Shown: positions 724 to 46,500, numbered from the whole stretch's first letter. The stretch is 60,508 bases of DNA, filler included, from Dugesia japonica (GCA_001938525.1; 5 parts of 5 records of this genome joined end to end with filler, not necessarily neighbours in it); one strand, 5' to 3'. The notes: generated by a model not told the origin, from the letters alone. Numbers and translations are program-made.

Positions 724-724
<1 letters not shown>

Positions 725-900
725 TTACAATTGCGATTATTGCGAGAATAATTGTTGGACNTAACCATTGATCGTTTTTTAGAATTTATTTAAAATAAAA
801 GATTCAATCAAAAAAAAATTTTATTTGTTTTTTTAAATTGATTCGTTATTTCGACTTTGTCTTTGTCAGTAATTGACTTTTTTAATTTATTCAAGATTTA
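724..900 (-). repeat. Dispersed PLE terminal (pLTR-like) repeat, degenerate hammerhead copy
   Basis: Matches copies near 17140, 19245, 19700, 29000, 38000, 43060-43360 and 45875. Minus strand 841-874 reads aattaCTGACAAagacaaagtcGAAAtaacgaa (degenerate core). Confidence 0.7.
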
Positions 901-1059
901 TGTTTATAATAGAAAAAATTTTTGAATTCATTTATTTTTATTAAATTTTAATTCGTTAATTTTAATTCTTATTTTAAATTTTCTTGTTTGATTTAAGAAT
1001 AATTTCATTTTTATGAAGTTCATGAAAATTATAGCTAGAATTGGAGATAAATTATTACA

Positions 1060-1325
1060 CATTGCAAACAACCTTTTTGTTTAAAAAGGTTTTCACCGAT
1101 AAAATTGCTATCAGAGAAGAGACACAAATTGATAAGACATTTGCAATCATTTTTGGTGATTTTGGAATATCTCTATGTTCTTTGTATTTTTCAAAGAAGT
1201 TACTTACAATATCAATGACATTTTCAAGTCCTTCAATTGGAATTGATCCATATAGATTTGTTACATCTAATGAACCAAATTCATCATCACTTTTCCATTC
1301 ATAATTTTTACAAAGAAAATGTTCA
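1060..1325 (-). mobile_element. Penelope-like element reverse transcriptase fragment
   Basis: Minus strand reads YEWKSDDEFGSLDVTNLYGSIPIEGLENVIDIVS. SLDVxNLYxxIP is the PLE RT motif. The + ORF 1041..1304 is its antisense shadow. Confidence 0.75.
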
Positions 1326-1429
1326 GTTTTTCATTCTCAGTTTAATAGTTTAAAAATACTTAAAAAATTATTATTATTTTATTAAAATTTTAATTCATAA
1401 TTAATTATATAATTATATATTATTTTGAG

Positions 1430-2497
1430 AAACATGCATATTTGTACAACACACCTTATGAGAAATATGTTTAGTCTTTAATTCCTAGTTTAACTATACC
1501 CAATTTGTTTGGTTATTATAAGTATTCTCAGAGAAAATAATTTCTTTTATTTAAGATGTAGCATGGTAACCATCAAATTTCTATCTTTTAAACAAAATAT
1601 ATTTTTACAGCAAACCCTATACAAAATATTTTCAAAATTATATTCTGAATCGAATACTGTCAGGTTTATAACCATACGATACGCTTTGGTCGAGAAATTC
1701 GTAGATCAAGGTCAACTGATCTCGTGCGCTTTTTATCCCAGAGAGAAATATGTTCAGATTTTAATTTTGCGTTCAACGAAACTGAACTTTTTTGATTATC
1801 ATAAGTATTTCGCAAAGAAATAATTTTTCATCCTCGGTAAGACATGGCACCTGGCAATTTTCTATCTTTTAAACTAAGAATATTTCTACAGTAAACCATA
1901 TACATCAAATGTTTAGACTTTTATTCTGAATCAAACGGTATCATGTTCAAGACCATTTGATAAGGTCTGGCTGAGAAATTCGCAGATCAAGGTCGCAGAT
2001 CAAGTATCTCGCGAAAAAATAATTTTTCATCTGGCAATTTTTTATTTTTTGAACTATGCATATTTCTACAGCGAATTCTATATAAAATAGGTTCAGAATT
2101 TTCATGGTCATATGATAAGTTTTGGTTGAGAAGTTCGCAGATCAAGGTCGACTGATCCCGTGTGCTAAATCATTTTCTCAGAGAACCAAGCATATTCCTA
2201 TGGGGAAAATGGCAACTTTCATGTCATATACAAATCATATACAAGAAATGTTCAGCTTTTAATTTCTAGATCAACAATAACAAGTTTGAAATTGTACGAT
2301 AAAAATTGATCGAAAAATTCTGAACCGAAAATTTGAATTTTCAACATCTCCGTGACAAAATTCGACCGTTCTAACCGAAATTTGGAAAACATCTTTACGT
2401 ATTTGTAACGATTAATCAAAATATTACATTACCAGATCACTCAAATTACTAGATCACTTCGTCGGCGGGAGGAGGGTAAGCAATACCGGGTGCTAGT
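1430..2497 (+). mobile_element. Putative non-autonomous Helitron with internal ~200-280 bp tandem units
   Basis: Three imperfect units share gagaaattcgcagatcaaggtc (about 1690, 1972, 2128). The segment ends in a GC-rich short hairpin (ggta-agcaa-tacc) followed by CTAG|T at 2493-2497. Confidence 0.45.
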
Positions 2498-2499
2498 AT

Positions 2500-2834
2500 C
2501 CATTTACTTCGACAATAAAAGCAACAAGCCAGAAGACTTTGGGGACTAGTCCAGCAGAAGTGAAATTCATAAGAAAATACATAGAGAAAGAATTTTCAAT
2601 AATGGAGAAAAGAATAAAAAACCCGGTGAGTTGACACCAACAAAGATACATCTTCAAGTTGCATACGATGTGCTAATCAAGGTAGAAAACAGATAAAAAA
2701 ACAAAAGAAGATATACGGGTCCATACGAGGTGATAAAACAGATTCATGAAAGTTGATACCTGTTGAAGAGTTCAAAAGGCAAGATGATTGAAAGAAATGT
2801 GGAAAAGATTAAAAAAGGTTTAAGAGGAGGGATC
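2500..2834 (+). mobile_element. Ty3/Gypsy integrase C-terminal fragment with polypurine tract
   Basis: Reads RYTGPYEVIKQIHES*YLLKSSKGKMIERNVEKIKK (GPY/F motif), followed by the purine run aagaggaggga. Confidence 0.65.
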
Positions 2835-2859
2835 TAAAAATCATTAATTGATTTAAATA

Positions 2860-3727
2860 CAATGCCGTCAATATGTTTTGAGTCACCCCTATAATATCCA
2901 TAAAATGATGAAAATATATAATTATAAGTACTTTAATTTAGTCTATTTAAATATATCAACGAATATGTTAAAACACATGTTTCCAATCAAATATTTCCAA
3001 AGTAAAATTGTTGTAAATGTAGAAAATCCGATTTTCCAAAAAACATAACTTTTTAGGTCATTTTGAATACAAGAGTAAAAATTCAATAAAACATCTTTTA
3101 TTTACATTTCAAATGAGGAAAAACATTATAATAAATAGTTAACCTCATAAAAAATCAAGACACTCGAAATTAGTACTTTGTATTCATACCTTTATTTTTA
3201 ATTACCTCTTGAATTCTTCTTGGCATGCTTTCATAAAGATTTTTAATTTTAGATGTTAAAATCATCGTCCATTGCTCCTCGGAATTTTTCCACAGTGCCT
3301 CAATATTTGCTGGCTTACACATAGCAACTTTGGCTTTTAGGTCAGCCTACAATGGCTCAATTATATTCAGGTCTGGTGATTATGCCGGCCAATCAATGAG
3401 TACGCAGATTTTTTTCATGTCCATAAAAGAAGACATTAATCATGATTTATGGCATGGAGCTCCGTCTTATATTCTGTGCCTTATATATTGGCAACAAGCC
3501 TTTCTTTAATACATTCATGTAGGCATCAGAATTCATCCGATCCAGACATCTTATCAAAACTTTGGTACCATCTTCTTTGATTGTACCCCAAACCATCAAA
3601 CTATGTCCTCCAAATTTCACCGTTTTCATGGTATATTTTGGATTATACCTTGATCCTTGAGGTCTGTGGACATATTTTCTTCTTCAAGAGAACAGTTCTA
3701 TGCGACTTTCATCAGTAAAAATGACCT
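2860..3727 (-). mobile_element. Tc1-family DDE transposon, truncated, pseudogenised transposase
   Basis: Minus-strand motifs VIFTDESRIELF, KTVKFGGHSLMVWG, DGAPCH and IDWPA*SPDLNIIE. TA|caatgccgtcaatatgttttgagtcaccc at 2858 looks like a TIR end. Confidence 0.85.
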
Positions 3728-3779
3728 CATTCTAAAAAGAAGGAAGCACTTTGCTATAATTTTCGACAAAAAACAACTT

Positions 3780-4207
3780 AAAACCAATCAAAATTCGACC
3801 TCATCGACCTCACCGAGCAAATTCCTAAATAAAAAGCCTATAAAAAAATTCCCAACTTAATACACAGGAAAAAATCCATAGTCTGTTTAAAAAATTTGAC
3901 GAACAATAAAAAAAAGTTTTTGAACCATAAAAATTTTGAAGAAAAAATAATTTGAACCATAATTTTAATCATGGTTCACCAATTTAATAATAATAAAAAA
4001 TTTGAAGAACAAAAAATTTTAACCACAAAAAATTCCGGACCAAAAAAAATTTTAACCATAAAAAATTTCAGTAACAAAAATTTCAGTAACAAAAATTCAG
4101 TCACAAAAATTCAGTCACAAAAATTCAGTCACAAAAATTCGGTCACAAATCCCCCCCACCTCCACCTTTTTCTCTCCAGACAAATGCAAGTGCGCCGCTA
4201 TCTAACT
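3780..4207 (-). repeat. Repeat-rich terminal region, possibly a Polinton/Maverick TIR
   Basis: Tandem aaaaattcagtcac units (about 4060-4147) and a C-rich tract. The end reads AGTTAGATAGCGGCGCAC on the minus strand, similar to 35522 and 40441. Confidence 0.4.
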
Positions 4208-5399
4208 TTGCTATTAAGTACAATATTTTTAAAAAATATAATCGATATTTTTTAAATATTTTTTTTGAAAAATGTCTGAGATTATTTGTTTGAATATAAT
4301 GAATTATACTTCATCATTATTTTACTTCAATCAAAACACTTGTAATAATAAATAAAATTTATGGAGAGTTTTAAGGTATTGAATTTAACTAATAACATTA
4401 TCTTTAGTTAAACTAAAATTGGTTGCGTATAAAATAATGAAAATTTATTAGTTTTTTTTGCTTATATACTCAGTGTTTTTTAGTAGTAGTTCTTTAGGTG
4501 ATGTAAAGATACTTTTTAATTGTTCGTATAATAATACAAGTTTTACATAAAAGTTAAAAATTTTCTATCCTCTTTCCTTCGACGGCTAGGTGAGATATGG
4601 CTCTTTACGCAACATTCCTTTATGTCCGAAACGAAGCATGTTTCGCTAGTTGTACTTTAGGTAATGTATAGACAGTTTGTAATTTCCAGAACAATGCAAT
4701 TGGTTTCAAGTCTAAAATACTTTTATTGCGCGAGGTACATCATTTTGTGGTTTATTTTCTTTGTTCTTTATTACCGTTATATCACAATTTTTAGAAAACC
4801 CCTTTCTTCTAAAAATAGGTCAAGAAACTGTCCATTCAATAGAGAATGTTTTGCTGATTCTAAATATGTTAACTTAAAATCTCCAAATCGATGAAATAAA
4901 TGAGGTTTTGTGGTGAAAAAATCTTAAAAATCAGATTATAGCGGTAAGATTTCTGTTTGCAGATAACTGTTATCGACTCAAAATTACTTCTACTTTACTA
5001 AGGAGGAACAAATGACTGGGCAAAGTTAAAATATCGTCTACGGAAAAATGCTACCTAACGAATATGTACAGCTGTCCTCTCGGATTTGGTAACATCTTTC
5101 GAAAAAATCAAAAATAACCCAAAATTTAATTATTTATGTAAAAAATGGAATACTTCGTTGGATTTTCATTTTATATTTTAATAATACCTACCCGTATTTG
5201 TTTATAACGATGTCCATTTTCCGTTTACGTTCTTCACTTTCTTACCATACTGTTTCGAAAATTTCTTAAAAATGTTCAACTGTTTACTTTGTTTCCTCTT
5301 TCTACTCTTTTTCTATATTACAATACGCTTCTTTGTTTGTTTAACTATTTTCATTTGAGGAATACATTTTATCTGATCAACTACAAATTTTTGAAATTT

Positions 5400-5689
5400 A
5401 TTTAAGTATTTTTTTTATTAGCCTCCTGATACAGATAATCTACTACGATAACATCGCCCGGTTTCAATTTCTTGCTCCAATTAGAATCAAATCCCTATAT
5501 GATTTTCATTTTAATGTTGCAAAATTCTGATTGAGTCAACCCATGTTCTTCATCTGCACCTCTGTGCCTATATATTTTGTTAAATTTTGATTTAAATAAA
5601 TTTAATTTTAGTAACTTGCATACGAATAAGGTTTTTCAACTACCGCTTGGACCAACAATTTGATGAACAGCATCATTTCTCAACTCCAT
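5400..5689 (-). pseudogene. Polinton/Maverick A32-like packaging ATPase, N-terminal half
   Basis: MELRNDAVHQIVGPSGS*KTLFVCKLL (Walker A with GGA>TGA) ... KLKPGDVIVVDYLYQEA (Walker B). Close paralog at 50745-50925. Confidence 0.75.
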
Positions 5690-5919
5690 TTTATGTAACT
5701 TTATAATTTAATAAATTGTTTATAATGCTACTGCTCTTTGTTTAAAAAAATATATTAATTTTGTGAGTAATATGTATGCAATACAGTTGCAAGTTTAACA
5801 AAGACATTGCAACTTGTGAGCAACTAGAACAAAGAGCATGAGTCATGCTTGTGCAACATGAATGCAGGCTATAAACAAAGACAATTCAACATGAATGCAA
5901 GTATACAAAGAGCATGAGT

Positions 5920-8900
5920 AATGACATTCTTCTTTTCTGTATTCCATAATCATATCCAAATTACTTAAATAATTCATTGCGTTGTTCATTTAACTGTGAA
6001 AATACTCCATCAATTGTATCAAAGTTACCATTTGTATCTAGAATGAATTTTGTATAAATCCGGATAAATAAGTATGGGAGCCTTCATTAACTCTCGTTTT
6101 AAAGCTTCAAAGATTGTTTACATGGATTCGACTAAATTAATTTATTTTTATTGTTTCCATATAAACTTTCTAATATCTTCGAGTTTTTTGAATAATCTTT
6201 AATAAATTTTCTGTAATAATCTGTAAGCCATTTAAAAGCTTCGACGTTTTTTCAAACACTTAGGTTTTTCAAATTCTTTAATTGTTTTTATCTTTTTTGG
6301 ATCTATTTTTAAATGGTTTAAAATGTTATGTTTTTAAATGTAATGATATGACCCAGAAAACCTAATCTTTTCCCAATCTTTTTGTATGCTCTTTCTCAGT
6401 TTTAGAAAAAATCAGTATTTCATCAAGATAAACAATTGCTTCCTTTCAATTTAATGTTTCTAACACTTTCCTCATTAATTTTTGAAATGTTGCTGGTGCC
6501 GCAGCTATTCCAAATTTCATTCGGTTGAAGCGATATTGACCAAACTTTGTAGAAAATGCCCTTTTGTATTTTGAGCTTTCCTCTAATTCTTCTTGGTAAT
6601 ATGCATTACTTAAATCAATCGTTTTAAAATATTTTGACGATTCAAAATGTCAAGAATTTCTCCTATATTTGGTATTGAAAGCAATGGTCTCTCCGTTATA
6701 TTATTCAATGATCAAAATCCAAGCAAATTCTAATGTCTTTTTTCTCTTTCTTCCAAACACAAACTAATGGAATATTCCATTCAGAATCACATTGTTTTAT
6801 TATACCATTTTCATCATTTTCTAAAATAACCTTATTAACTTTACCTTTTAAATGAATAGGTTGTTGCCTAGGATTTACTTTAACTAGACCACCGTGGGTA
6901 ACAATTTCATGTTTTAATAGTATTGTCTTACCTACATTCCATTTATCTTTCATAATAATTTCTGAAAATCGTTCAATTATTTCACTAATATTTTTATTCA
7001 GTTCATTTTTAAAGTTTATAGTTTTTATTTTTAATATTTCTTTATCACTATAATATAGGATTTTTAATTTGATATTAAATTTAGATAAAAATTCAATTCC
7101 TGCAATAACACCTGAAGAAATATTTTCTGCAACATAAAACTTAATATATTCTATTTGCTTATTAAGTGTAATTTTTAGTATAATACTTATTATTATTTTT
7201 AGTGGACTTTCGGTATCACAAGTAACATTAATATATTCACTTTTACTTTTAGTAATATTTAATTTTAAAAATATTGCATTATCAATCACATTAATCTTAG
7301 CGCCAGTATCAAGTAAACAATCAACATTTAATTCGTTATTTAATTTTAACTTTAAACATGGTCTTCTTGACATTTTATTATACACAACTAATTATAATTA
7401 TCATAATTATTTATTAAATTTACATTATTTAAATTTTTATTTCAAACTAAAACATCATTAGAAATAAAAATGTTATCTATAAAATATTCTAAAGTTTTTT
7501 TTAAATAAATCATCAATCAATAAATATTTACATTCATTCAAACAAAGTTTAAAATTTTCATTATATACATGAAACCAACATTCACAAGCATTCATATCGC
7601 ATGCATTAGTGCTCAAAACATTATTATCTAACCTAGATTTATTGCTCCATCTGCATCTTCTCTCATCAGAGCTTTGGTATTTCCCGAATTATCCTTTTGA
7701 TCTACTCAATCACTGGTATAAGCATAAGCATTGTTAGTTTTATTTGGTTGTTTCATTTAAATCAACTTAAATAAAACCTTTGATCGAATATTTTATTTAA
7801 AATACAAATAATTCTTCTTTGAAATTCTTGTTGCTTTTTGAACACTTCTTCCAACCATTGTCTTTCCCAATTTATATTTTTAAATAATAATATGCTTAAA
7901 CAAATTTATTATATTTATTAAAAATATATTTTGTAAATATAAAACATTCGAATTTAAAATAATTTAAAAATAAAACGATAAAATCTAATTATTAAACTTG
8001 TCACTAAATATTTACATTTAAAACTTTTGTAAAAAAATATCTTTTTAGTAAAGCTTTACATTTATATTTCAAATTTACATTTAAAAATTTAAACTAATAA
8101 ACATTGATTTTAATAAAAACCTTATTGCATTAAAATTTAAACATATTTAGGAATTTTTAAAATTACCTAACAATCATGATAGACATTTATTTGAAATCTT
8201 CATGGCTTGTTGAAAATTTGTCTTCTTTCTGCTCTCAAAGGATTAATTTCATGGTATTGAAATCGGAGATGCCCTGGATTCTTACAATGCGAACATTTAA
8301 CATTATGACGTTGTGAGCGTATGTGACCTTCTCTGCCTGTCCAACATTTTCTCACTCTGAAAAACTGAACATTGGGTTCATAATTTCTTCTCATAAAATT
8401 TCCGGTATTTCTTCGATATATTTTGGAATCATATTTTTGACCGTAATTTTTATTTTGTTTTAAATTTCCATTGAATCTTGGTTTATTAAATCTATTATTT
8501 GAATTTGGAATTTCTCACTTTTGTTGCGTATGTAACTTTTTTTTCAACGTCGATATCCATATTCTGGTTCCATTTCTTTTTTCAATCCATCGATTTTAAT
8601 AATAACTTCTTTCATTTTTCATATCTTTTATATCTCCCATTTTTATTTCCTTTTTGACTTCTTTATTGTTCATTGAATTTTGTAAAAGGAATATGACGAG
8701 TTTTTCCTTCGTAAACTGGTGACACAGAATATTATCTGCTAATTTTTCAACTTTTGAAAAAAAATGAAATTGAGAATTCATTTAGTCTACGATATTTCAA
8801 GGCATTATTTAGATCTCTACTAAGGTCTCCATGCTCTGAAAATGCTTCTCTACAAAGTGTTTCGAAATTTTCAATGTATGAATTGACTGCTTCATATAAT

Positions 8901-9072
8901 TTGACTGCGTCCGTTGTCATAAAAGCTTTTATAATTATTTTCTTTAACGAATTCGAAGTTATAGAAATTTCAAAAAATCTGTTTGCTTCTTCACTAAATT
9001 CATCAACATTTCCTCCTATCTCGAAAATCTTGGATATTGGAATCCACGAGTTCAGGATTGGCGTGGTTGCCA
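5920..9072 (-). mobile_element. Ty3/Gypsy LTR retrotransposon internal region (gag-pro-RT-RNaseH), decayed
   Basis: Gag with two degenerate CCHC knuckles (CWTGREGHIRSQ; CSHCKNPGHLRFQ). Protease LLDTGA (ORF 6705..7385). RT motifs IRICLDF, RFNRMKFGIAAAPATFQ and YLDEIL. RNaseH FILDT. Multiple stops and frameshifts. Confidence 0.9.
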
Positions 9073-9303
9073 TGTTGGTCTTGAAAAACGAATTAAGCAT
9101 AAAATATATATTCAAAAACAAAATGACATTGTAACAAATATTTATAGCTATTGAGGAATCAGTTATGCAATAATGTCTGAGCACTAAAATCATACACACA
9201 TTCAAACAGTCAATCACGCATTCACATATTATCACATTCATATGCCGATTTACTTATATTAAGGTTAATATAAAAATATTATATTATTCTTAGTCATATC
9301 TCA
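9073..9303 (-). repeat. Probable 5' LTR of the Gypsy element; PBS at 9060-9072
   Basis: Minus strand runs TGAGATAT...accaaCA, followed immediately by TGGCAACCACGCC (a TGG-initiated primer-binding site). Confidence 0.55.
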
Positions 9304-14864: not shown

Positions 14865-15747
14865 ATGTTTTATAAAATAAATAGCTTTTCGTTAATTGTG
14901 TTTCTCTTCTAATGACTTTGTAAAAATAGGGAAAATGATGAACCCGAATACAAAGGTTTGTGGGCGTGCACCTCCCATTAAGCGAGGGGTCAACCACCAT
15001 AAGCTGAATACCTAACATAGGGGCGTTAGGTTAAATTCTTGAAAGGGTTCCCCTGAGGGCTGTTTTTCCACGATTATCTTCACTCAACTCAGATGGGACC
15101 CCAACAATTCTAAGAATATTGATACCAAATTCAACATCATACGATGATTTTATAATTACAAACTACAACCTCGATTTTTATAAGGAAGAAAGTATTACTA
15201 GACGTTTAACATGAATAAGTTCCCAACCTAATTTTTAATTCTCTATAAAATGAAACCGTTTTCGATCCGAATTAATTAAACTACTGAGGGATATGATTTA
15301 GTGTGACAGTGCATTTTCTAATAAAACCAACAATGTTTTCAGAAAAGTAAAATTAGATTCCTATAGAGTTTTCAATTTCGAGTTCAATGGTGTAAAAATA
15401 TAGTTTTAAAATTTTAATTATTTTATTTATAATTATAACTTATAATTAATTATATAATTATATTTTATTTCTTCAATCATTCATTTTAACTGTAAGTCCA
15501 AACTGAATTGCCAAATAAAACAGAAACTGAAAATTAAACAATAAATTAAATAAAATAAACAAATAATTACAAATTAATCAATAAACTTTTACACATAATT
15601 TATTAATTATAAAATGTTTGTTTTTATGGATAAATTAACATTTTTATTTTAAACACAATTTTAAAAATATATTTGTTATTTTATTATTGTTTTTATTAGA
15701 AAAATAAATTAATTTAATTAATTATTTAAACAGTATTTTCGTACGAA

Positions 15748-17020
15748 ATGGATGACATTTGGGATTTATTGAAAGAATATGATTTTGTATTAACAAATAG
15801 AATTAATATTGATTTTAAGTGTATTTTATGTAAGAAAATATTGATNNNNNNNNNNNNNNNNNNNNNNNNNNNNNNNNNNNNNNNNNNNNNNNNNNNNNNN
15901 NNNNNNNNNNNNNNNNNNNNNNNTTGTCCTGGTTCAACAGATGAATGCAAAGAAGAAAATCTGCATTTGATAAGAAATATAAATATTGATCATTGTTTTA
16001 ATAGGAAAATTGCAAAATTGAAATTGTATTGTCCAATTGAAAATTGTACATTTTCATATCAAATAATCAATATGAAACAACATTTGATTGGTTGTCAAGA
16101 AAATGCAATCAAATGTTCACTTTTTGAGAAAGGATGTCATTTTATCAGTTTATCTGGAGATAATGTTGATAAGCATTATAAAATGACTAAAGATAAACAT
16201 TTAGAATTAGTTCTATCAGAAAATGTAAATATTAACAATACTAATAAACTATTAAAAAAAAGAAGTTTGGAATTAGAATTAGAAATAGAAAAATTACAGA
16301 ATATTAATAAAAAATTAAAATCCGAAAGTGATATTGATAAAGTTCAATTAAAACAAAATCGAGTTAATTTTTCAGTTTATAAATAATAAAATCTTATTTG
16401 ATATTTATTCAGAACACAATTATGCAATGGAATAACAAATACAATGACATATTACTATTAAATAAAATGGTAATTTTTTTTTATTTGAAAATAATATTTT
16501 TTCATTATTTCAGAACAATGAATACCAAGTGAAATATGAAAAAGAAATAATTTCAACAAATAATTTAAAATGGTATTTATGTGAATATTTGAAAAACAGT
16601 TTTACAGAATTCATTTGGAAAATTCCTTACTCTGCTCCACTTCATAATAATTATCTGTTAGGTTTTAATCGAGAGATTTTAAAGCTCGAAAGTGATGAAT
16701 TTTATATTTATAAAAACGACATATCAATGAAATTAAATTTTTTTTCTGATCCATGTACAAATAGTATTAAACGGTATACTTTGTCTGGAAATGCATCCCA
16801 TTACGATCCATCGTTGAATAATTCTTGTCCATTTATTGCTAATATTACTATAGGATTTATCAATAAATCTAGTGGAAACTTTATTTTAAGATTTTACGAA
16901 AAGAAATCATTTGGCAGTTCCGGTATTTCATTTGAAAAGAAAATAAACAATTCCGAAATAGAAAAGGAAATTAAAAATAATCATCTCACTGTGAAATGTT
17001 TAATAAGATTTTCTTTATGA
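15748..17020 (+). CDS. TRAF-like protein (RING, TRAF zinc finger, coiled coil, MATH); exons 15748-16362, 16413-16469, 16514-17020
   Basis: RING CILCKKIL...CPG (partly in an N gap). TRAF-type finger CPIENC...HLIGC. Coiled coil. MATH hallmarks FIWKIP, LESDEFY, PFIANITIGFIN and LTVKC. Two GT-AG phase-0 introns (50 and 44 nt) keep the frame open. Confidence 0.85.
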
Positions 17021-17345
17021 GTTATATTCGATTATTAATGGATTATTACATTAAATTATTTCAATAATTTTTGATGATTCGATAATTATCATTAGATTAT
17101 ATTATAAATCAATAAAAATTCATTTTAATGATTATTATTTTTACAATTACAATTATTACGAGAATAATTGTTGGAATTAACTATTGATTGCATTTGAGAT
17201 TTCATTAAATTAAATTTCAGAAATTCCTGAAGAAAAGAATAGTCGAAAATTCGGATAACCACCAAAACAAAACAACATTTTGATCGAAGCTTTTAATTTA
17301 AAGAAATGAAAAATGAACCAATTTTTAAATATTTACAATCTAAGC

Positions 17346-19128: not shown

Positions 19129-19960
19129 CCAAAATTGTTTTCACAAATTGATTGAGTATTCCAATGTTTGTAATCAACTGTGATAATAAATTATTTAAAA
19201 TTAAAATTTCTCCAATTATCACATAATATCATTAAATTGATTTTATTTTACAATTACAAATATTGCGAGAATAATTGTTGGATATAACCATTGATCGTTT
19301 TTCAGAATTCATTTAAAATAATAGCTTCGATCAAAATTTGGTTTTTATGGTTTTTGATAATAATTCTATATGTCGACTTTGTTTTCGTCATAAATTGACT
19401 TTTTGATTCATTCAATATTTACTTTTACAATACATAATTTTAATATGTATTTTAATACATAATCAGTAGTATTATTCTTTAATATACTTTATTTTTACTA
19501 AATTTTAATTAGTTAATTTTAAAATTTCTTTTAAAGTTTANNNNNNNNNNNNNNNNNNNNNNNNNNNNNNNNNNNNNNNNNNNNNNNNNNCCAAAATTGT
19601 TTTCACAAATTGATTGAGTATTCCAATGTTTGTAATCAACTGTGATAATAAATTATTTAAAATTTCTCCAATTATCACATAATATCATTAAATTGATTTT
19701 ATTTTACAATTACAATTATTGCGAGAATAATTGTTGGATATAACCATTGATCGTTTTTCATAATTCATTTAAAATAAAAGCTTCGATCAAAATTTGGTTT
19801 TTATGGTTTTTGATAATAATTCTATATGTCGATTTTGTTTTCGTCATAAATTGACTTTTTGATTTATTCAATATTTACTTTTACAATAGTATTATTCTTT
19901 AATATACTTTATTTTTACTAAATTTTAATTAGTTAATTTTAAAATTTCTTTTAAAGTTTA
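19129..19960. repeat. Near-identical duplication either side of an N gap
   Basis: 19129-19540 is repeated at 19591-19960 with small indels. Probably uncollapsed haplotypes. Confidence 0.75.
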
Positions 19961-28896: not shown

Positions 28897-29056
28897 CTAT
28901 AAACTATAAAATCGATGTCTAATNTAACAGTTGTAATAAGATATAGTTCATAAATTAAAAGCTTTAATAAAATGTTGTTTCTTTAATATATCTTTATAGT
29001 TGTTACTAATTCGTATTTTCGATTTTTGTCTTATTCAGACAATGAAATTAAAAAAT

Positions 29057-29092
29057 AATTTCTGAAGAAGACAAAAGTTGAAAATTCGAATT
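29057..29092 (+). ncRNA. Minimal type-I hammerhead ribozyme motif (CUGAAGA family)
   Basis: aattt-CTGAAGA-a-gac-aaaa-gtt-GAAA-at-TC-gaatt: stem I aattt/gaatt, complete core, stem II and a UC cleavage dinucleotide. Confidence 0.7.
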
Positions 29093-29445
29093 ACTAACAA
29101 CAACTAAAATAAATATTGAAAAACAACATTTTCACATTAGCTTTTTTAATAAAATCTCAAATACAGTCAATGATTAAGTCCAACAATAATTTTCACATTA
29201 ATTGTATTGGTAAAAGATATAATTAATACATAAATAAAAAACTTGTATAATAATAGACCAATATTTTGATTTTGATATATAAGGAACAACTGAATTACAC
29301 AGTTTTCAAAAGTTTTCAATGTCTTATTATATATTTATTTTTCTAAATTTTTTAGTGATACCTTGGTGGCTGTAAGAATGTTCTTTGCAGCTTACAATAT
29401 TAATTGAATAAATGAATANTTATTAAATAAGGTTTAACCTTTATA

Positions 29446-32034: not shown

Positions 32035-32421
32035 TTAATACATAACTTTTAATAATATTTACATCATCATAAAAATCTAAAGTTTTCAAACCCGTTATTA
32101 CTATATTTCCAGAATGAAAAACGTTGACACAAAGGATTGAATGGTATTAATCGAAGACCTGGAAATATTTTTAATTCACATATGCAATTTGATGTTTCAG
32201 TCAATTTCGGTAAATTTATTGACAACTGTAAGGAATCGGTCACCGTCACCGATTGTATTTGTTTGGCAATTATATTGAATAGAAATTCTTTGTTTTTTAA
32301 TGATTTTATACAACCCATAAGTCTACATTTTCCATTTGGAAATATAATTATTGTAAAATCGGAATACTTTAATACACATTGTTTTGCTTTATACCTAAAT
32401 TGAAGACTATTCAAAAACAAG
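32035..32421 (-). pseudogene. Divergent TATA-binding-protein-like fragment between inverted repeats
   Basis: Two TBP repeats: IIIFPNGKCRLMG and ELKIFPGLRL...C(V)NVFHSGNIVITGLK (one frameshift). 26-bp perfect IRs at 32009-32034 and 32422-32447. Confidence 0.65.
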
Positions 32422-32474
32422 ATGTAATAAATTAAATGTATTAACCTATTTAGTTATGTCTTGTTTTATAATTA

Positions 32475-35800: not shown

Positions 35801-38480
35801 TAAAAATTATCTAACAAANNNNNNNNNNNNNNNNNNNNNNNNTTTTTTTTGAGATTAACATAATTGTTTTATTCAAATTTATTCTCATAGAAAAATATGT
35901 CCAAGATAAAGTCATTCATTTATTTTACCTATATTCTTGAGTAGAATTTAAAATTTTGTTGGTGTTACACATTTATTATTTCATTGACTACAATCATTTT
36001 TTATTTATTTTTATTATTATAAAACTTTATTGTTATATATTTTGACGGATCAACCGTCATCATCAGACAAAAATGAAAAAAATGAATTTATTCAGTCTGT
36101 ATTATTCAAACAAAGATTAATGCGATTATACTGAATATAAGAATTATAGCCGTCTTATATTCAGTATAATCACATTAATCTTTGTTTGAATAATACAGAC
36201 TCAATAAACTCATTTATTTTATTTTAGTCTGATGATGACGGCTAATCCGTCGAAATACATAACAATCAAGTTTTATTTTAAATGGCATTACTTATTTTTT
36301 ATAAAACATTTGCCATCGTGTTTTGCATATTTATTATTATAATTAAATTTTAAATATCAAATTCTACGTTATAAATTTAGCTTTTATCGTATCAATGAAT
36401 TTCTGATTTAATTATAAAATAAAACATACTTAAGAACGCATTAATCCACATGATTTAAGTTTCTATAAATTTATCCATATGATTAATCACATCTAATTTA
36501 AATTTAAATAAATGTTTTGCTATCAAAATTTAATACCGCCAATCAGTGTCGGAATCATTACCGTATGATTAAGTTGTGATATTATCATTATTCATAATAA
36601 ACCTGTTTTATTATTAATATTATTATTATGATTGACTATTATTTTATTATTATGCATATTTCGAAAGTGTGACTTTTAATGTTTAATTTATTTTATAAAA
36701 ATTTGTTAGATCTTACTATTTCAAAGTTAACTTCTAAATAAAAATTTGAATGTTTGTTTCTTTGTTTAAACTGCTTGTTTTCACTTCCTTAATTGATGCA
36801 GATTGAAGATAATTTAGAAATTGTTTTTTAAAATTGTTATTCTGACAATAAATGAATTAAAATAAAATTTTTCCCATTTATTACATAAATATAAAGATAT
36901 TGGTATTATGTGGAAAACTAGGATTAATGATACATTCGATTTTTATATGATGAAATATTTCTGGTGTATTTTGTCTAATAAAAATTGCAACTTCATTTAT
37001 AAAAAATTATGCGAACAAACAAAGTTACGCTATGATTACATCATATATTATGGAAAAATACTCACATATTTATCCTATGAATTAAGTAATTCAAATATAT
37101 ATGACATAATCACTGTATGAGTTTATATTCATTATATCAGAAGTTTCTAACTCAAATTGTCTCGCGGGCCACTTTAGATGAAATGCGTTATATAGCGGGC
37201 CGCACTCATACTATATCTGACTATAACACCTTGTACTACTTGATACAGCATTATAAAACAGATTATATTATATTGTATTTGTTAAGTAAATCTTGCTAAG
37301 ATAATTTTTTTTCGAATAAATTAATCATTTTTATCAATTGTTTTTACAAATCTCAGCTGGTCGCGTGTTTGATTATATCATTGTTACATAATCAAATTTT
37401 CTAAACAGTATTCTGATGCGTTCATATCTACATACTGTCAGTCAATATCATGTCACTATTATTTATTTCCTTTTTCTACTTATGCAGTAAAAAACATGAA
37501 ATTAACCGGAAATATTAGTAAAATTTTCTATTTTCACTGAACGTTTCAAGTCGGTGTAAATAGTGAAATATAAATTTATGTATATATATTTTGACATTTA
37601 CTAGCATATTAATTTTAATCATTTTAATAAATGTATTACACTAGAAAATATAGTCGGAAATATTGTATTCAACGGATTAAATGTTGATGACCATAGTTAA
37701 TTGAATTCCTCATGTTAGCATGGCATCACCAGGTTTAGAAGAATTAATTGATTGGTTAAGGGAAAATAGATGTTTCTCAATAACATTACTATCGGGTAAA
37801 ATATTGCGTAGAAATTACATGTTATTAACAATTTTTAAAATGTCGGAATTTTAAAATTTAGCGTAGGTTAAACATTAAAATTCTATAGTGACCAACTTAA
37901 ATTAAAATTATCTAATAAAATGCAAACAATTTTGATAAAGTTTCTAATATTCATTAAATCAATCAAAAGGTTAACTCGTAAAGAAGACAAAAGTCGAACA
38001 TTTGAAATACTAACAACTAAAAAATTACAGAACATATAAAAAACATTTTGATTGAAGCTTTTAATTTAGTGAAATCTCAAATGCTATCAATGGTTAAATC
38101 CAACAAATATTTTCACAATAATTGTTATTGTAAAAATCATTATTTGATATTTTTATTTTATTTGCATTAGTCAATTGTCATTTTATTTTGTTTTTATTAA
38201 TTTAAGTTTTTCTACTTTTGAAAAATACGCATAATTTTGTGGATCAATATATTTATTATAAATTTTTCATTGATATACATAAAAATAATTTAATAAATTT
38301 ACTATGAACTAATTATGGGAGTAATAATTTTTGGAAAGAAATCAGTTGGCACGTGTTTCTAATATTTTCTTCTAATTAGACAGATTTAAGCATTAGAAAA
38401 AGATGTGTAAATTTTTTCCGTGATTTTTTACAAAGAAAATAGGATATTTTTGTGAATAAGGTTTTAATTAATTAATTAGT

Positions 38481-40440: not shown

Positions 40441-40760
40441 AGTAGGTAGATATTGGCGCATGTAGCCACCCCCAGGTAGAAAAATTTTCAAGGTCAAAAT
40501 GGCAACTTATACTTAATTTTGATTAGTGGAAATTTTTTTCAAAGTCAAAGTAGCCAATTATAGTCGATTTCGATTGACTGAAACATTTCAAGGTTGAATT
40601 TCCAAGGTCGAATGAATGTAGGTCAAGGTTAAAGAAATGTAGGTCAAAGTTAAATGAAATTGGTTCAAGGTAATTTCCATGGCAACTATCGTCCGGACAG
40701 ACTTCATATTTAAATTCCCCGCCCAGATTTAATATTTACATTTCACGCACAGACTTCATA
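40441..40760 (+). repeat. Terminal region of a large DNA element (Polinton-like TIR)
   Basis: Begins AGTAGGTAGATATTGGCGCA and contains repeated aaggtcaa units and ccatggcaac. Confidence 0.4.
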
Positions 40761-41422: not shown

Positions 41423-41522
41423 NNNNNNNNNNNNNNNNNNNNNNNNNNNNNNNNNNNNNNNNNNNNTTAATTAATTAANNNNNNNNNNNNNNNNNNNNNN
41501 NNNNNNNNNNNNNNNNNNNNNN
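41423..41522. other. Artificial contig linker
   Basis: 44N-TTAATTAATTAA-44N. Confidence 0.95.
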
Positions 41523-41845
41523 TTTTAAAATCAAATATAATTTGAATATAAAAAATGAAATAATAATTTTCTTTTGTCACATTATTTTTTTATAAAAATA
41601 AAATATAATTTAAAACGAATAAACTATAAAATGAAATGAACAAAAGATTTTATTTAATATATTTTTTTAAAAATCAAAAATAATTTGAATATAAAAAATG
41701 AAATAATAAATTTCTATTGTAACGTTATTTTTTTATAAAAATTAAATATAATTTAAAACGAATAAAATATAAAATGAAATGAACAAAAGATTTTTATTTT
41801 AATATATTTTTTTAAAAATCTAAAATAATTTGAATATAAAAAATA
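41523..41845. repeat. ~145-bp AT-rich tandem repeat (about 2.2 copies)
   Basis: The unit aaaatcaaa..taatttgaatataaaaaatgaaataataa...gaacaaaagatttt is repeated. Confidence 0.8.
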
Positions 41846-42194
41846 TAAAATTAAATATTTGATTTTTCCGTTTTTAAATATGGATTTTTAAATTTGTTTG
41901 TTTAATTATCTAATGATGTTATACTTTTTATTTTGTCAATAAATTGTCGTATTGAATTTGAATTCTGATGTTAATGATTCCATGAGTTTTCAAAACTCAA
42001 CTAACATGTATAATCAAATATACAATTGTAATGGCTAAACCTTATAAGCTTATTTTAAATCAAATTGGAGCTGCTTCCCACAAAGGTCAGAGTCCAGATG
42101 ACAAAATCTGACTAAAAATTGAATCAGTATATATACTCAAATATCAGTATTTTGTAAAATATTAATAATGAAAATGATAATTTATTTATTTGAT

Positions 42195-42510
42195 AAATTA
42201 TTTTTATGATACAAATATAAATATTTTATAAATTAATTTTTTATGATACAAATATAAATATTTTATAAATTATTTTTATGATACAAATCTAAATATTTTA
42301 TAAAATATTTTTATGATACAAATTTAAATATTTTTTAAATTATTTTTATGATACAAATATAAATATTTTATAAATTAATTTTATATGATACAAATTTAAA
42401 TATTTTATAAATTATTTTTATGATACAAATCTAAATATTTTATAAANNNNNTTTATGATACAAATCTAAATATTTTATAAATTATATTTATGATACAAAT
42501 TTCAATATTT
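42195..42510. repeat. 35-bp minisatellite, about 9 copies
   Basis: Unit atttttatgatacaaatctaaatattttataaatt. Confidence 0.9.
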
Positions 42511-43114
42511 GACGAAACTGATTTCAATAAAACCCGCTTTAAAATACAAAAAAATTCAAATCTGCTTGTAAAAACTACCTTATAATACTGAATTAATTTG
42601 ACATTATATTTATAACATTAAACGTCCTTTTGATAAATTTTATTGTTTATTTTCTTCAAGACTTCATTAAAATAGTAAAGTTATCCATTTTGAAGTTACA
42701 TTGGTTGAAATGCTATCTTCATCATTTAAATCAAACCAAATCACATCACTCAGTTTGTTCATGGTCTTATTTTCCGGTAGACTAATTTTTTCTTGAAATC
42801 ATTCTTTGAGATGATATTCATTTTATCATTTTAAAATTGTTATTGTTTAATATTATTTGTATATTATTTATTTAAATATTTCAAATAACTGCTAAAAAAT
42901 ATTGACAATTATTTCCCATTTCACTCAATCAGTAACTTTAATCTCTTCCAAAACTTACTGTAAATAAAATATTCACACAAATTTTCTTTGATAATGAATG
43001 AAAGCCAAGACAACTTTAGAGTATGATGTATTATTGTTTACTGTGTTTTAATAATTACTTTTCATTAAAACAAAGAAAAAGCTTCGATCAAAATAAAATG
43101 CATTTTTATAGAAA

Positions 43115-43146
43115 TTCAAATTTTCGACACTTGTCTTCTTCAGGAA
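43115..43146 (-). ncRNA. Minimal type-I hammerhead ribozyme motif (CUGAAGA family) in a palindrome arm
   Basis: Minus strand ttc-CTGAAGA-a-gac-aagt-gtc-GAAA-at-TT-gaa. Perfect stem II; NUH site = UUU. Confidence 0.7.
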
Positions 43147-44596
43147 CGGAATGGAATAAGAAGACAATTGTCGACTATTTGAATTTCTATAAAAATGCAT
43201 TTTATTTTGATCGAAACTTTTTCTTTATTTAAATGAAATCTCAAATGCGATCAATGGTTAAGGCCAACAATTATTCTCACAATAATTGTAATTATAGAAT
43301 TAATAATTAGTGTTTTATTACAAGAATAATTGTTAGATTTAACCATTGATTAAATGCTTCGATCAAAATGTTAGTTGTTAGTGTAAGATAGTTTTTAAAA
43401 GCAAATTTGAATTCTTTGTATTTTGAAATGGGATTTATTAAAATCAGATTTTTTAAATTTTTAAATTTGATCATTAAAATAATTTGTAAAATAAATTTTA
43501 AAGTTTATTTGTGTACAGAAAGCGAATGTGAAATTTATAATTTGTGTTAAAAATAAAATTGTATTATAATGTATAAAATGATCAAATTTCTGATTTTCAA
43601 CAAAATAATTTTTATTTTATTTTTAAATTTGTTTGAAAAAAACAAATTTGTATTCTTAGTTTTATTTTGTGAATAAATCTTTCATGGAAACGAGTTTCGA
43701 AATTAATTATCCAATGAGTACTTCAAACTCATCTAACATTTACTAATAATAAACTTTTAATTCTAAGAATATTGATACTAAATTCAATCTCATACGATAA
43801 TTTTTCACCGAGAAATCAATTATTGACATTTTAATTTAAAATCTTTAACCACGTCCTTCATAAGGAAGGAAGCATTTTTAGACTTTTGCATGAATTTGTT
43901 CCCGATCTACTTTTTAATTCTCTATAAAATTATATTGGTTTCGATCCAAAATTTGGATGTCGGGGGGGGGACTATGTTCCTAGAGGCCTCACATCTACCT
44001 ACCATTAAGGAAGTATCTTTAGTATTAAAACGCTGTAACCAAGTTGACGCTGTGCACCTATCAACTACACCAAGACCTTTTTTTCATAAGAATCGCAAAA
44101 TCGCTCGCATAGCTAATTTTTCATCAGACATATTAATGGTAAAATTATATCTAAATATAAATTTGAACATTATCATATATTTAAATCTGAAATTTACAAT
44201 AAAAATGCTTTAGAATTATCTATTTAAATATATATGTTTATAATATCATCAAATGAAATATTTAAACAAACATCTAATGTTATTATGTTGTAAAGGCTTG
44301 TGCGATAATTGCCATCAGGAATTAACTTTAAACAATTTTCGAAATTTCGAATTACTAGCAACTAAAAAAATCATCAAAAAAACCATATTTTGATTGAAGT
44401 TTTTAACTTAATTAAATAATAATTAGTATTTTCAAAAATGCGTAGATAGACACCTCAACAAATTTAGTTCAAATATGGAAAACATATCTTAAAAAACATA
44501 ATTATTCGTATTCAAAAAATAATTTTTACATAGCTTAAGATCTCGCGTATACCGACAAGGAAAATTATAAAATTCGACATTGTTAGCCTTATACAT

Positions 44597-44998
44597 TTGT
44601 CTTTGTTTGAAAAATTACGAAATTATCTTCAGAAATCTAATTCTCAAGATGGTGATGGATTATTAAAAGGAAATATAAACAATAGTAAATTAAAAAATTT
44701 ATCAAACAAAAATTCTTCTGAAAAATCCCTATCCGATCCGGAATTGATTGTTGCAATTCGATTTCCGAGTGGACGAAAAATTATTAAAAATATTACAGAT
44801 CAAACTCAAAATCTGATCGAATTGATTACAGATCTTGGAATTGAAAATAAAGAAAGACTTGATATAGATTATTTACAATGTCTCAATGCAGCAGTTTCTG
44901 ATGGACCGAGAATGTATTCAGATGATCAAATGAAAACTCCAGTTAGGGATTTAAAAATCCAAAATAAATCATTGCTTATTTTCCAATACTCAGATTAG
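44597..44998 (+). CDS. UBX-domain protein, terminal exon (UBXN10-like)
   Basis: DPELIVAIRFPSGRKI...SDGPRMYSD...TPVRDLKIQNKSLL follows the C-terminal UBX fold pattern. The 5' boundary is uncertain. Confidence 0.65.
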   Translation: MSLFEKLRNYLQKSNSQDGDGLLKGNINNSKLKNLSNKNSSEKSLSDPELIVAIRFPSGRKIIKNITDQTQNLIELITDLGIENKERLDIDYLQCLNAAVSDGPRMYSDDQMKTPVRDLKIQNKSLLIFQYSD

Positions 44999-45434
44999 AA
45001 TAACAAATGTGTTTTTTTNNNNNNNNNNNNNNNNNNNNNNNNNNNNNNNNNNNNNNNNNNNNNNNNNNNNTGATAATTTTCTGTGACTTTTGTAAATAGA
45101 TTTCATTTCAAATTTTTTAGTTGTGGCCTTGAATGCAGTTTATTTCAATAAATATCTTTCGAATGTTACTCGTTTTTTCTATTCAATTTATTTATTTGAT
45201 GATTTTGTTTGATTAATTAATTCTTCAATTAATTCAATTAAATTAAAAAAACCTTAATTATTTTACCGTATTTTCGATCTGAAATCCCCCAATTATTGAT
45301 TAAGTCAATAATTCTAGTAAATTCTATAATTTATTAATAAAATTTATATTTNCCCTATCTGAAAATAAGGTATACATTTGTGAGTAAATCAGAGATTATC
45401 TAGAACTACGAAAGAAATTGACAATAATCATTAA

Positions 45435-45586
45435 ACTAACGGAAAACTCCATATAGTATGACTCATACTATTAAATATTATGACCAAAAAAAAGTTCTTT
45501 TTCGAATTTTCATCAAATTTGGTCATACTATTTATTAGTATGATTATTGAAAAAAATAGTCATACTATTAGGAGTTATCTGTTAGT
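45435..45586. mobile_element. Palindromic MITE
   Basis: TIRs actaacggaaaactccatatagtatgact / agtcatactattaggagttatctgttagt, with internal tagtatgac repeats. Confidence 0.65.
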
Positions 45587-46139
45587 ATAATCGACATTGA
45601 CAGCTAAATGACAGCATATATTTTACAGTCTTTATTTGTTGATTAAGTCAGATATTGGAAATCACTATTTTCTTTTTTTCAAAATGGAAGAAAATAATAT
45701 GGATTTACAAAAAAGAAGAGCTGTTAATTCGAAGCAATTTATTAATGAATAACGTCGTGGTTTCTTTAAATAGTTATTGCAAATAAAGGAACAACAAAAT
45801 TATAACATGGTGCTACTAATAAAGTTTCAGCTAAATTTTCTATTAAATCGTTTGTATAAAATTAATTTAATAAATTTACAATTACAAGAGTTATTGAGCG
45901 AATAATTGTTGGACTTGATCGTGTTGGAGATTTCATTAAATTAAAAACTTCGAATAAAAAGTTGTTTTGGTTTTTTTTTATTGTTTTCATTATGAATTTC
46001 ACTTTTGATTGATTTAATCCAAGTTATAAAAAATTACAAAATGTTTAAATTTTATTGGATAATTTATTTAAGTTTATTTTAATTATTATAAATTNNNNNN
46101 NNNNNNNNNNNNNNNNNNNNNNNNNNNNNNNNNNNNNNN

Positions 46140-46500
46140 AAAGTGTTTGAAGACTTTACTTTCTTTCTGTTTGAGATGTTCCTTAATTCTTGTTTGGATG
46201 TATGCAGAACTATCCAAGCAAAAATTAAGGAACATCTCAAACAGAAAGAAAGTGGTCTTCAAACACTTTCAGCACAAACATAAAATGTCACCAGAACAAC
46301 ATTATATAAAACTAAATAAATGCAATTTATAATTGAAATAAATTTAAACAAATGATCTAATACAATGAAAAACCTTTTGTAAATTTTTCTAATTTGGGTT
46401 GAATCAATCAAAAAGTTAAATTCCTGAAGAAGACAATCGAAAATTCGGATAACTACCAAAAAAGTAAAAAAAAAACATTTTGATCGAATCTTTTAATTTA
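46140..46500 (+). mobile_element. PLE 3' end: GIY-YIG endonuclease remnant plus hammerhead-containing terminal repeat
   Basis: Frameshifted CLRC...CRTIQAKIKEHLKQKES..FKHF, followed by aattc-CTGAAGA-agacaatc-GAAA-at-TC-ggat at 46419-46450. Confidence 0.6.

What the first reader, a model, noticed from the sequence alone, without database searches (positions are those of the whole stretch)
724..46500. Abundant dispersed repeat is a minimal hammerhead-ribozyme-bearing element
Seen: a ~170-bp repeat recurs at least ten times (about 724-900, 17140-17300, 19245-19400, 19700-19860, 28950-29215, 37975-38135, 43060-43360, 44310-44410, 45875-45970, 46419-46500). Its consensus end is AATTC-CTGAAGA-A-GAC-NNNN-GTC-GAAA-AT-TC-GAATT. 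That is stem I, the CUGANGA core, one extra nucleotide, stem II with a variable loop, GAAA, a palindromic AAUU in place of stem III, and a UH site. Known: Penelope-like elements carry minimal type-I hammerheads in their pLTRs, which are thought to cleave as dimers. Inference: this is a high-copy, mostly non-autonomous PLE or retrozyme-like family. Copies at 29057 (+) and 43115 (-) retain complete cores.
Basis: partly seen in the sequence, partly recalled or inferred. Interest (0 to 1): 0.8.

Follow-up and report, generated by a model that had tools for sequence, protein, structure and literature searches.

The report
Penelope retrotransposon ends with hammerhead ribozyme
The repeat is the decayed end-piece of an ordinary Penelope-like retrotransposon in a flatworm-like animal genome, and the tiny self-cleaving RNA motif it carries is a known feature of such elements.

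Summary
The repeat and the motif are real, but they are not a separate retrozyme family. The window holds 14 arms at 9 places. Their consensus fits the published minimal type-I hammerhead of Penelope-like elements (PLEs): 2 descriptor hits against 0.03 in shuffles. The repeat is the pseudo-LTR of a protein-coding PLE. An 843-aa RT plus GIY-YIG protein (P0001) matches the repeat's 3' end (residues 1-18), endonuclease sequence inside two arms, and an RT remnant beside a third. Arms end at two fixed points about 60 nt apart. All 4 head-to-head pairs have one long and one short arm, and 3 of 4 have 8-10-bp target duplications. This is known PLE anatomy. The copies are decayed: the core is no better conserved than the flank (13% vs 10% mismatch), and covariation is not significant. 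Cleavage was not tested. The host looks like a planarian relative, and a planarian PLE hammerhead is already published. One modest novelty remains: the RT falls in a well-supported group that mixes Hydra-like and Nematis-like motifs and that I could not name.

The parts
722..990 (-). pLTR arm with long 3' end; degraded hammerhead at 836-877; followed by an (AAT)n tract at 668-724
   Evidence: the 5' limit near 990 is a profile envelope in AT-rich DNA and is soft
970..1309 (-). Broken PLE reverse-transcriptase remnant (residues 430-543 of P0001, in three frames), directly upstream of the 722-990 arm on the same strand; the rest of the ORF is missing between them
   Evidence: tblastn 77%, 76% and 51% identity, E 7e-34; 85% to P0066
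17137..17214 (-). Left arm of an inverted pair: long 3' end, 5'-truncated downstream of the hammerhead
17219..17307 (+). Right arm of the same pair: short 3' end; core intact (C3 at 17227), stem II broken; no target duplication found
19245..19519 (-). Single arm, long 3' end, two core lesions; ORF start at 19297-19247
19701..19887 (-). Near-identical second copy of the previous arm inside a 456-bp local duplication (possibly an assembly artefact); ORF start at 19753-19703
28947..29046 (-). Left arm of an inverted pair: short 3' end, two core lesions
29050..29215 (+). Right arm: long 3' end; best-kept hammerhead (C3 at 29062, predicted cut after 29087); start codon position at 29170
28938..28945 (.). 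8-bp target-site duplication, left copy (right copy 29214-29221)
   Evidence: null P 0.005
37859..38135 (+). Single arm with 3' UTR, degraded hammerhead (37970-38012), ORF start (38081-38134), long 3' end
43060..43151 (-). Left arm of an inverted pair: short 3' end; hammerhead core intact (C3 at 43143, U at position 17)
43153..43300 (+). Right arm: starts inside the hammerhead core; ORF start at 43245-43292; long 3' end
43048..43057 (.). 10-bp target-site duplication, left copy (right copy 43300-43309)
   Evidence: null P 0.012
43315..43373 (-). Further internally deleted fragment lying tail-to-tail with the 43153-43300 arm
44216..44417 (+). Single arm, short 3' end, CUGANGA deleted
   Evidence: 5' limit soft
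45873..46199 (-). Left arm of the longest inverted pair: begins in the GIY-YIG coding region (46199-46140, residues 775-794), N gap, 3' UTR, damaged hammerhead, long 3' end
46197..46508 (+). Right arm: GIY-YIG coding remnant (46197-46308, residues 770-807), 3' UTR, hammerhead with 3 nt missing from stem II (C3 at 46424), short 3' end
45864..45872 (.). 9-bp target-site duplication, left copy (right copy 46509-46517)
   Evidence: null P 0.011
52034..52135 (+). Weak RT remnant of the same PLE group, no pLTR seen beside it
   Evidence: best E 4e-4
54619..54960 (+). Degraded thumb/linker/endonuclease remnant of the same PLE group
   Evidence: E 1e-4 to P0001; 75% DNA identity to 46219-46275

Best explanation
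The repeat is the pseudo-LTR (end of the ORF, 3' UTR, minimal hammerhead, 5' UTR, start codon and first codons) of an endonuclease-bearing Penelope-like retrotransposon whose protein resembles P0001. The copies are dead, 5'-truncated insertions of that family. Shown here: the anatomy. Inferred from work on other PLEs: the RT-endonuclease binds its RNA near the ORF start and nicks AT-rich DNA on both strands 8-10 nt apart. It starts reverse transcription inside the RNA at one of two sites about 60 nt apart, which gives the short and long 3' ends. Priming from both nicks, followed by early termination, gives a head-to-head pair with one end of each kind, flanked by a target duplication. Many copies stop near the hammerhead, either because the RNA's 5' end lies there or because the RT stalls at the structure. 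In the source element the hammerhead would cut after the UC/UH only as a dimer (AAUU pairing with AAUU) or with help from the PLE protein. Cutting is probably not needed for insertion, because the arms run unbroken through the cut site. After insertion the copies decayed neutrally.
For: [quoted passage not shown] It matches the repeat's 3' end (residues 1-18; 4 arms, best 14 of 17 identical, E 0.006; each match is weak alone), endonuclease sequence in both arms at 46.2k (E 7e-6, 8e-5) and an RT remnant abutting the 722 arm (E 7e-34). Of 13 arms tested, 7 reach reference position 90-93, 5 stop at 28-31, and 1 is an internally deleted fragment; 17137-17214 ends at the long position. All 4 inverted pairs combine long with short. 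Three of 4 have 8-10-bp duplications (P 0.005-0.012 each). Published PLE anatomy is the same: an inverted 5'-truncated copy, a tail at one end only, a pLTR that includes the first codons, and 8-10-bp duplications (PMC8557442; PMC3846280). The tail corresponds to two internal RT start sites, and both strands are extended (PMC11167929). The motif fits the published min-HHR consensus, with precedents for the AAUU palindrome, U17 and a 3-bp helix II (PMC4209133 Fig. S3). Stems I and II are the minimum-energy fold of copy 43143 and lie 0.3 kcal/mol above it for the consensus.
Against: No full-length element lies in the window, and no DNA of P0001's element could be fetched (searches found nothing), so its pLTR was not seen. 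The core is not better conserved than the flank (14 of 108 vs 51 of 489 mismatches; G/C sites 8 of 39 vs 21 of 123). Covariation is not significant (61 of 500 shuffles reach the score). The only two-sided change in the core helices is AU to UA in stem III, in one subfamily. The double-hammerhead dimer is computed at -3.2 kcal/mol against -13.7 for a rival dimer paired through the 10-nt palindrome that spans the cut site. The 60-nt tail is longer than the 30-40 nt reported. The 17.2k pair has no target duplication. The duplications were first seen by eye and then tested, with boundaries allowed to move 4 nt. The reference for end mapping was built from the long arms.
Confidence: 0.88

Rival explanations
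1. The short units are an independent non-autonomous family (retrozyme- or SINE-like) derived from the pLTR and amplified in trans by the PLE enzyme, perhaps through circular RNA.
For: Most arms are short and carry no coding sequence beyond the first codons. Three of 4 pairs have their junction close to the hammerhead. Animal retrozymes are reported to derive from PLE pLTRs (bioRxiv 10.64898/2026.07.22.740005).
Against: There are no head-to-tail arrays of the unit, whereas non-LTR retrozymes are defined as tandem repeats with canonical type-I hammerheads (PMC7229834). 5' ends differ from copy to copy and reach into the endonuclease and RT regions. No arm is seen to begin at the predicted cut site.
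Confidence: 0.07
2. The element is a PLE, but the hammerhead motif is a vestige that no longer cleaved even in the source copies. It is kept as a protein-binding or promoter structure, or not kept at all.
For: No excess core conservation and no significant covariation. Stem II is only 3 bp, and a strong competing palindromic dimer exists. In the anole PLE, hammerhead mutants insert normally and no reads end at the cut site (PMC11167929). Eight of 9 Xenopus retrozyme dimers did not cleave.
Against: The consensus across arms that differ strongly in the loop and 3' UTR still has every invariant base, G10.1-C11.1, a 5-bp stem I and a palindromic stem III. The AU/UA swap keeps the palindrome.
Confidence: 0.2
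3. The inverted pairs are MITEs or foldback DNA transposons, and the hammerhead likeness is incidental.
For: Long inverted arms with 8-10-bp target duplications in AT-rich DNA.
Against: The arms differ in length at both ends, occur singly, and encode PLE protein pieces. The outer ends of a pair are not mirror images (long vs short).
Confidence: 0.02

Closest known systems
[quoted passage not shown]
   Same: CUGANGA plus one extra base, G10.1-C11.1, GAAA, a 4-nt palindrome in place of helix III, UH, short helix I; mostly single truncated copies, some in close pairs on opposite strands
   Different: Helix II is 3 bp (5 bp in the Schmidtea example; 3 bp in the C. briggsae one). The palindrome is AAUU or AUAU. 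The sequence across the cut site is itself a 10-nt palindrome.
Adineta vaga Penelope insertions (Arkhipova et al. 2013, PMC3846280)
   Same: Inverted pLTRs, a tail on one end only, a pLTR plus tail that includes the first codons, 8-10-bp target duplications, internal deletions, palindromes at the inverted junction
   Different: The tail is about 60 nt here against 31. The short end stops before the start codon. The A. vaga elements belong to Penelope/Poseidon, which lacks the cysteine-rich linker.
Poseidon of Anolis carolinensis, PAc (Frangieh et al. 2024, PMC11167929)
   Same: The 3' end lies inside the start of the ORF; two end positions; AT-rich targets; hammerhead near the ORF start
   Different: Here the predicted cut lies about 75-90 nt upstream of the start codon (26 nt downstream in PAc), and the long end is about 45 nt into the ORF (111-118 in PAc).
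Hydra and Nematis clades of C-terminal EN+ PLEs (Craig et al. 2021, PMC8557442)
   Same: Hydra: DKT, KDHK, CxCX5C linker. Nematis: canonical RT motif B' (LAMG..L.P.LA...M), CCHH endonuclease
   Different: P0001 keeps CCHH and lacks Hydra's divergent RT motifs and C-terminal CxxC. It lacks Nematis's DKG/KTHK. Its hammerhead is minimal, while Hydra hammerheads have a 3-4-bp stem III.
Non-LTR retrozymes (PMC7229834; bioRxiv 10.64898/2026.07.22.740005)
   Same: Short, AT-rich, type-I hammerhead, related to PLE pLTRs
   Different: Those are head-to-tail tandem arrays with canonical hammerheads; these are dispersed, truncated, inverted and carry ORF pieces.

Membership tests
EN+ Penelope-like element | Single ORF with RT and C-terminal GIY-YIG endonuclease | tested here: met
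   P0001; pieces of both domains lie in or beside the arms; no intact ORF in the window
EN+ Penelope-like element | pLTR made of the ORF end, UTR and the first codons | tested here: met
   46197-46508 runs EN, UTR, hammerhead; long arms end in residues 1-18
EN+ Penelope-like element | 5' truncation with an inverted copy at the 5' end | tested here: met
   4 head-to-head pairs
EN+ Penelope-like element | Optional 3' tail at one end only (30-40 nt) | tested here: met
   two end classes, one of each in 4 of 4 pairs; the length is about 60 nt, longer than reported
EN+ Penelope-like element | Direct pLTR-ORF-pLTR partial tandem | not testable with these tools
   no full-length copy in the window; genome-contig scans empty; metagenome and viral contig collections closed
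PLE minimal type-I hammerhead | CUGANGA + extra base, G10.1-C11.1, GAAA, palindrome at 15.1-16.1, UH, helix I | tested here: met
   met by the consensus; 2 copies pass the descriptor with wobbles or U17
PLE minimal type-I hammerhead | Covariation and selective conservation of the core | tested here: not met
   61 of 500 shuffles reach the covariation score; core 13% vs flank 10% mismatch; only 12 decayed rows, so power is low
PLE minimal type-I hammerhead | Self-cleavage as dimer or with protein | not testable with these tools
   needs an in vitro assay
Non-LTR retrozyme | Head-to-tail tandem repeats, each with a hammerhead | tested here: not met
Non-LTR retrozyme | No protein-coding sequence | tested here: not met
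Non-LTR retrozyme | Expressed as circular RNA | not testable with these tools
   no RNA data
Hydra clade | DKT motif and CxCX5C linker | tested here: met
   P0001 sequence against the definition; motif table
Hydra clade | CCHH absent from the endonuclease; divergent RT4(B); hammerhead with real stem III | tested here: not met
   CxxC and HxxxxH present, canonical B'; compared by eye with Hydra rows
Nematis clade | CX2-5CxxC linker with CCHH; DKG/KTHK motifs | tested here: inconclusive
   CCHH and a cysteine linker are present (C-x3-C-x-C in P0001, C-x3-C-x2-C in sister rows), but P0001 has DKT/KDHK; rows with Nematis-like motifs group elsewhere in the tree; no named reference was in the tree
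MITE / foldback DNA transposon | Mirror-image terminal inverted repeats of fixed length | tested here: not met
   outer ends differ by about 60 nt within each pair

The most novel reading that the evidence does not exclude
The source element belongs to an unnamed deep clade of C-terminal EN+ PLEs (signature SLDVxNLYGSIP, DK[TS], PKDHK; 33 of 100 rows, SH-aLRT 100) that bridges Nematis and Hydra: it has Hydra's DKT, KDHK and, in P0001's subgroup, CxCX5C, but keeps CCHH and a minimal hammerhead. Its insertions record two RT start sites 60 nt apart, used once each per head-to-head insertion. That would be genomic evidence that both target strands are primed in one event, and that abundant solo pLTRs arise by initiation at the 5' pLTR-ORF junction without any separate non-autonomous family.
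Probability: 0.35. Interest if true: 0.42.

Novelty: new member of a known kind. Interest (0 to 1): 0.22.

Why it matters
Mostly it does not: minimal hammerheads in PLE pLTRs, dispersed truncated copies and opposite-strand pairs are published, with a planarian example. For PLE specialists there are two small points. A lineage with mixed Hydra and Nematis motifs bears on how those clades arose. The strict long/short pairing of ends, with 8-10-bp duplications, gives a countable genomic test of the internal-initiation model that so far rests on one lizard element in vitro.

Tried and rejected
Rfam scan: no hammerhead family among 6 matches; the miRNA matches at 46158-46253 and 36108-36185 are the fold-back centres of inverted PLE pairs. 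Pfam on 18 window ORFs did not detect the RT remnant; it was found by reading frames. PDB sequence search with P0001: 0 matches. The ESM Atlas gave only RT/HTH_animal/GIY-YIG clusters with no clade name. Two genome-contig scans for DNA around relatives found none (11 and 108 pattern matches, none confirmed). The cluster look-up for six proteins could not be made. A covariance model built from 9 arms returned those 9, the 19.8k duplicate and the 44.3k arm (E 0.012), and nothing else below E 0.1; it did not find the second family's hammerheads. An extended closing helix I (upstream ATCAAAA with downstream TTTTGAT) was proposed: 80% of cells pair, without significant covariation, so it stays a suggestion. 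The monomer energies used a structure string that was off by one and were discarded; one search has the corrected values. Hydra membership was considered because of DKT and CxCX5C and rejected on CCHH, RT motifs and hammerhead form. The tree is the quick method (SH-aLRT only); the careful search did not finish, and 59 of 159 proteins were left out for lacking the full RT core. Literature searches found no paper on this family or naming this RT group. A motif search of the Craig supplement gave 0 hits, but long rows there are cut at 400 characters and the ORF rows I saw were of other clades, so this is weak. Repbase was not available. Supplements of the 2026 bioRxiv preprint are closed and might list related families.


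Full report
OBSERVATION. The window is 24% G+C with many short N gaps. An ORF at 47607-48332 is 71% identical to NPHP5 of Schmidtea mediterranea, so the host is most likely a triclad flatworm (inference; not resolved further). The repeat is present at all ten intervals. A profile finds 14 arms with E<1e-4 at 9 places and none in the reversed window (10 arms were seeds). Together they cover at most about 2.6 kb, 4.5% of the called bases. The arms at 19.3k and 19.7k are a 456-bp duplication with flanks across an N gap and count as one event. The consensus carries the stated motif. A minimal-hammerhead descriptor gives 2 hits (29062 +, 43143 -) against a mean of 0.03 in 200 shuffles, and a third (46424 +) if a 2-bp stem II is allowed. 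I wrote the descriptor after seeing the motif; it follows the published consensus NNN CUGANGAH G..C GAAAN palindrome NU H NNN (PMC4209133 Fig. S3). Rfam reports no hammerhead.

WHAT THE REPEAT IS. A broken frame at 1055-1330 (-) showed RT motifs. [quoted passage not shown] Residues 430-543 match 1309-970 (-), directly upstream of the 722 arm. Residues 770-807 match the centre of the 45873-46508 inverted structure on both strands. Residues 1-18 match the 3' end of four arms (E 0.006-0.09 each, weak alone but at the very N-terminus). Read in sense, the 46197-46508 arm runs endonuclease, 3' UTR, hammerhead, and the long arms continue to the start codon and about 15 codons. [quoted passage not shown]

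INSERTION ANATOMY. Of 13 arms extended against a reference built from long arms, 7 end at position 90-93, 5 at 28-31, and one is an internally deleted fragment. The arm at 17137-17214 starts beyond the anchor and ends at the long position. The four head-to-head pairs (17.2k, 29.0k, 43.1k, 46.2k) each have one long and one short arm. By hand calculation from 8 long and 5 short ends, that has about a 5% chance under independent choice. Three of the four pairs are flanked by exact duplications of 8, 10 and 9 bp (null P 0.005, 0.012, 0.011); the 17.2k pair has none. I saw these by eye first, and boundaries could move 4 nt. Craig et al. describe 5' truncation, an inverted 5' copy and a 30-40-nt tail at one end as typical of PLEs (PMC8557442, passages). 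Frangieh et al. show that the tail is the stretch between two internal RT start sites, that both target strands are nicked and extended, and that AT-rich DNA is preferred (PMC11167929, parts 1-2 of 4).

THE RIBOZYME. Every feature has a precedent among published PLE motifs: AUAU in Schmidtea, AAUU with U17 in Crassostrea, a 3-bp helix II in C. briggsae (supplement parts 1-2 of 3). Stems I and II are the minimum-energy fold of copy 43143 (p 0.45), nearly so for the consensus (p 0.22) and not for copy 29062 (p 0.01). Four of 12 aligned arms keep all 11 invariant bases; none is fully canonical. Results against: after dropping the 19.7k duplicate and junction columns, core mismatches are 14 of 108, against 51 of 489 in the 3' block of 7 long arms, and the G/C and A/T classes are alike. 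Covariation is reached by 61 of 500 shuffles. The one two-sided change in the core helices, AU to UA in stem III, is a single subfamily event that keeps the palindrome. The sequence across the cut site is a 10-nt palindrome, and a dimer through it (-13.7 kcal/mol) beats the double hammerhead (-3.2) in a nearest-neighbour model that ignores tertiary structure. Published minimal motifs cleave poorly, only as multimers (PMC4209133, parts 1-2 of 4) or with protein, and mutating them does not block insertion in vitro. The arms pass unbroken through the predicted cut, so the templates were uncut or religated (inference). I conclude that the motif is a true PLE hammerhead by descent, that its activity is untested, and that these copies are under no visible selection.

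MECHANISM. Shown: pLTR identity, two end classes, inverted pairs, target duplications, decay. Inferred: staggered nicks 8-10 nt apart; internal priming at two sites about 60 nt apart around the start codon; priming from both strands to give a head-to-head pair; early termination, often near the hammerhead. The ORF start occurs at both ends of a pLTR-ORF-pLTR transcript, so initiation at the 5' junction would yield only a short pLTR copy. This would explain the many short arms without a separate family (my inference, untested). Confidence in the PLE-pLTR reading is 0.88. Confidence that the source ribozyme could cleave under some condition is about 0.75.

COMPARISON. It works like a canonical EN+ PLE and meets the tested defining features, except that no full-length tandem could be seen. 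It fails the retrozyme tests: not tandem, and it carries coding sequence (PMC7229834, passages; bioRxiv 10.64898/2026.07.22.740005, parts 1 and 3 of 5). Clade: P0001 has Hydra's DKT, KDHK and CxCX5C, but keeps CCHH and a canonical motif B' like Nematis, and the hammerhead lacks the stem III that Hydra elements have (Craig supplement parts 1, 2, 7, 57 of 59 and two searches). In a quick tree of the 100 of 159 retrieved proteins that cover the RT core, P0001 sits in a 33-row group (SH-aLRT 100), apart from rows with Nematis-like and Poseidon-like motifs. The labels are by motif only; no named reference was in the tree. Six literature searches showed no paper naming this group. Repbase could not be checked, and the metagenome and viral contig collections stayed unchecked. 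The hammerhead position numbering is taken and from recalled convention.

VERDICT. Observation confirmed; interpretation partly supported. A new member of a known kind, interest 0.22. The residual novelty is a possibly unnamed PLE lineage with a long tail and strictly paired ends (probability 0.35, interest 0.42 if true).

Noticed in passing
window 36014-36281: A second, unrelated head-to-head inverted pair (90% complementary), each arm with a PLE-type hammerhead (C3 at 36229 + and 36066 -; 5-bp stem II, AUAUAU palindrome). Each copy has one lesion and fails the strict descriptor. No significant target duplication, no other copy in the window. Probably a second PLE family.
   Followed up: partly
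window 55173-55460 (+): C-terminal GIY-YIG remnant of another PLE family, 31-38% identical to retrieved PLE proteins; no clear hammerhead downstream.
   Followed up: partly
window 6705-9253 (-): Broken Ty3/Gypsy-like LTR retrotransposon remnant: retroviral-type aspartyl protease (Pfam E 4e-5) with gag-like frames upstream; the class label is from recalled motifs.
   Followed up: no
window 47580-48335 (+): Host gene exon, NPHP5/IQCB1-like, 71% identical to the Schmidtea mediterranea protein.
   Followed up: partly
window 19129-19960: Near-identical 456-bp tandem duplication across a 50-N gap; may be an uncollapsed haplotype or an assembly artefact.
   Followed up: partly
window 29083-29092 and consensus: The sequence spanning the predicted cut site is a perfect 10-nt palindrome, so stem I's 5' strand repeats the stem III/cut-site sequence. 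This allows a stable inactive dimer that could act as an off-switch.
   Followed up: partly
window 32067-32453 (-): Frame with a weak TBP-like match (Pfam E 3e-4), possibly from a large DNA element.
   Followed up: no
window 15730-17020 (+): Two frames that look like a TRAF-type zinc-finger and MATH-like gene by recalled motifs; Pfam gave no match. The 17.2k insertion lies about 120 nt downstream.
   Followed up: no
window 42179-42510 and 41523-41844: 35-bp minisatellite (9 copies) and a 143-bp tandem duplication.
   Followed up: no
window 668-724: (AAT)n tract directly after the long 3' end of the 722 arm, in line with the preference of PLE endonucleases for ATT/AT-rich targets.
   Followed up: no
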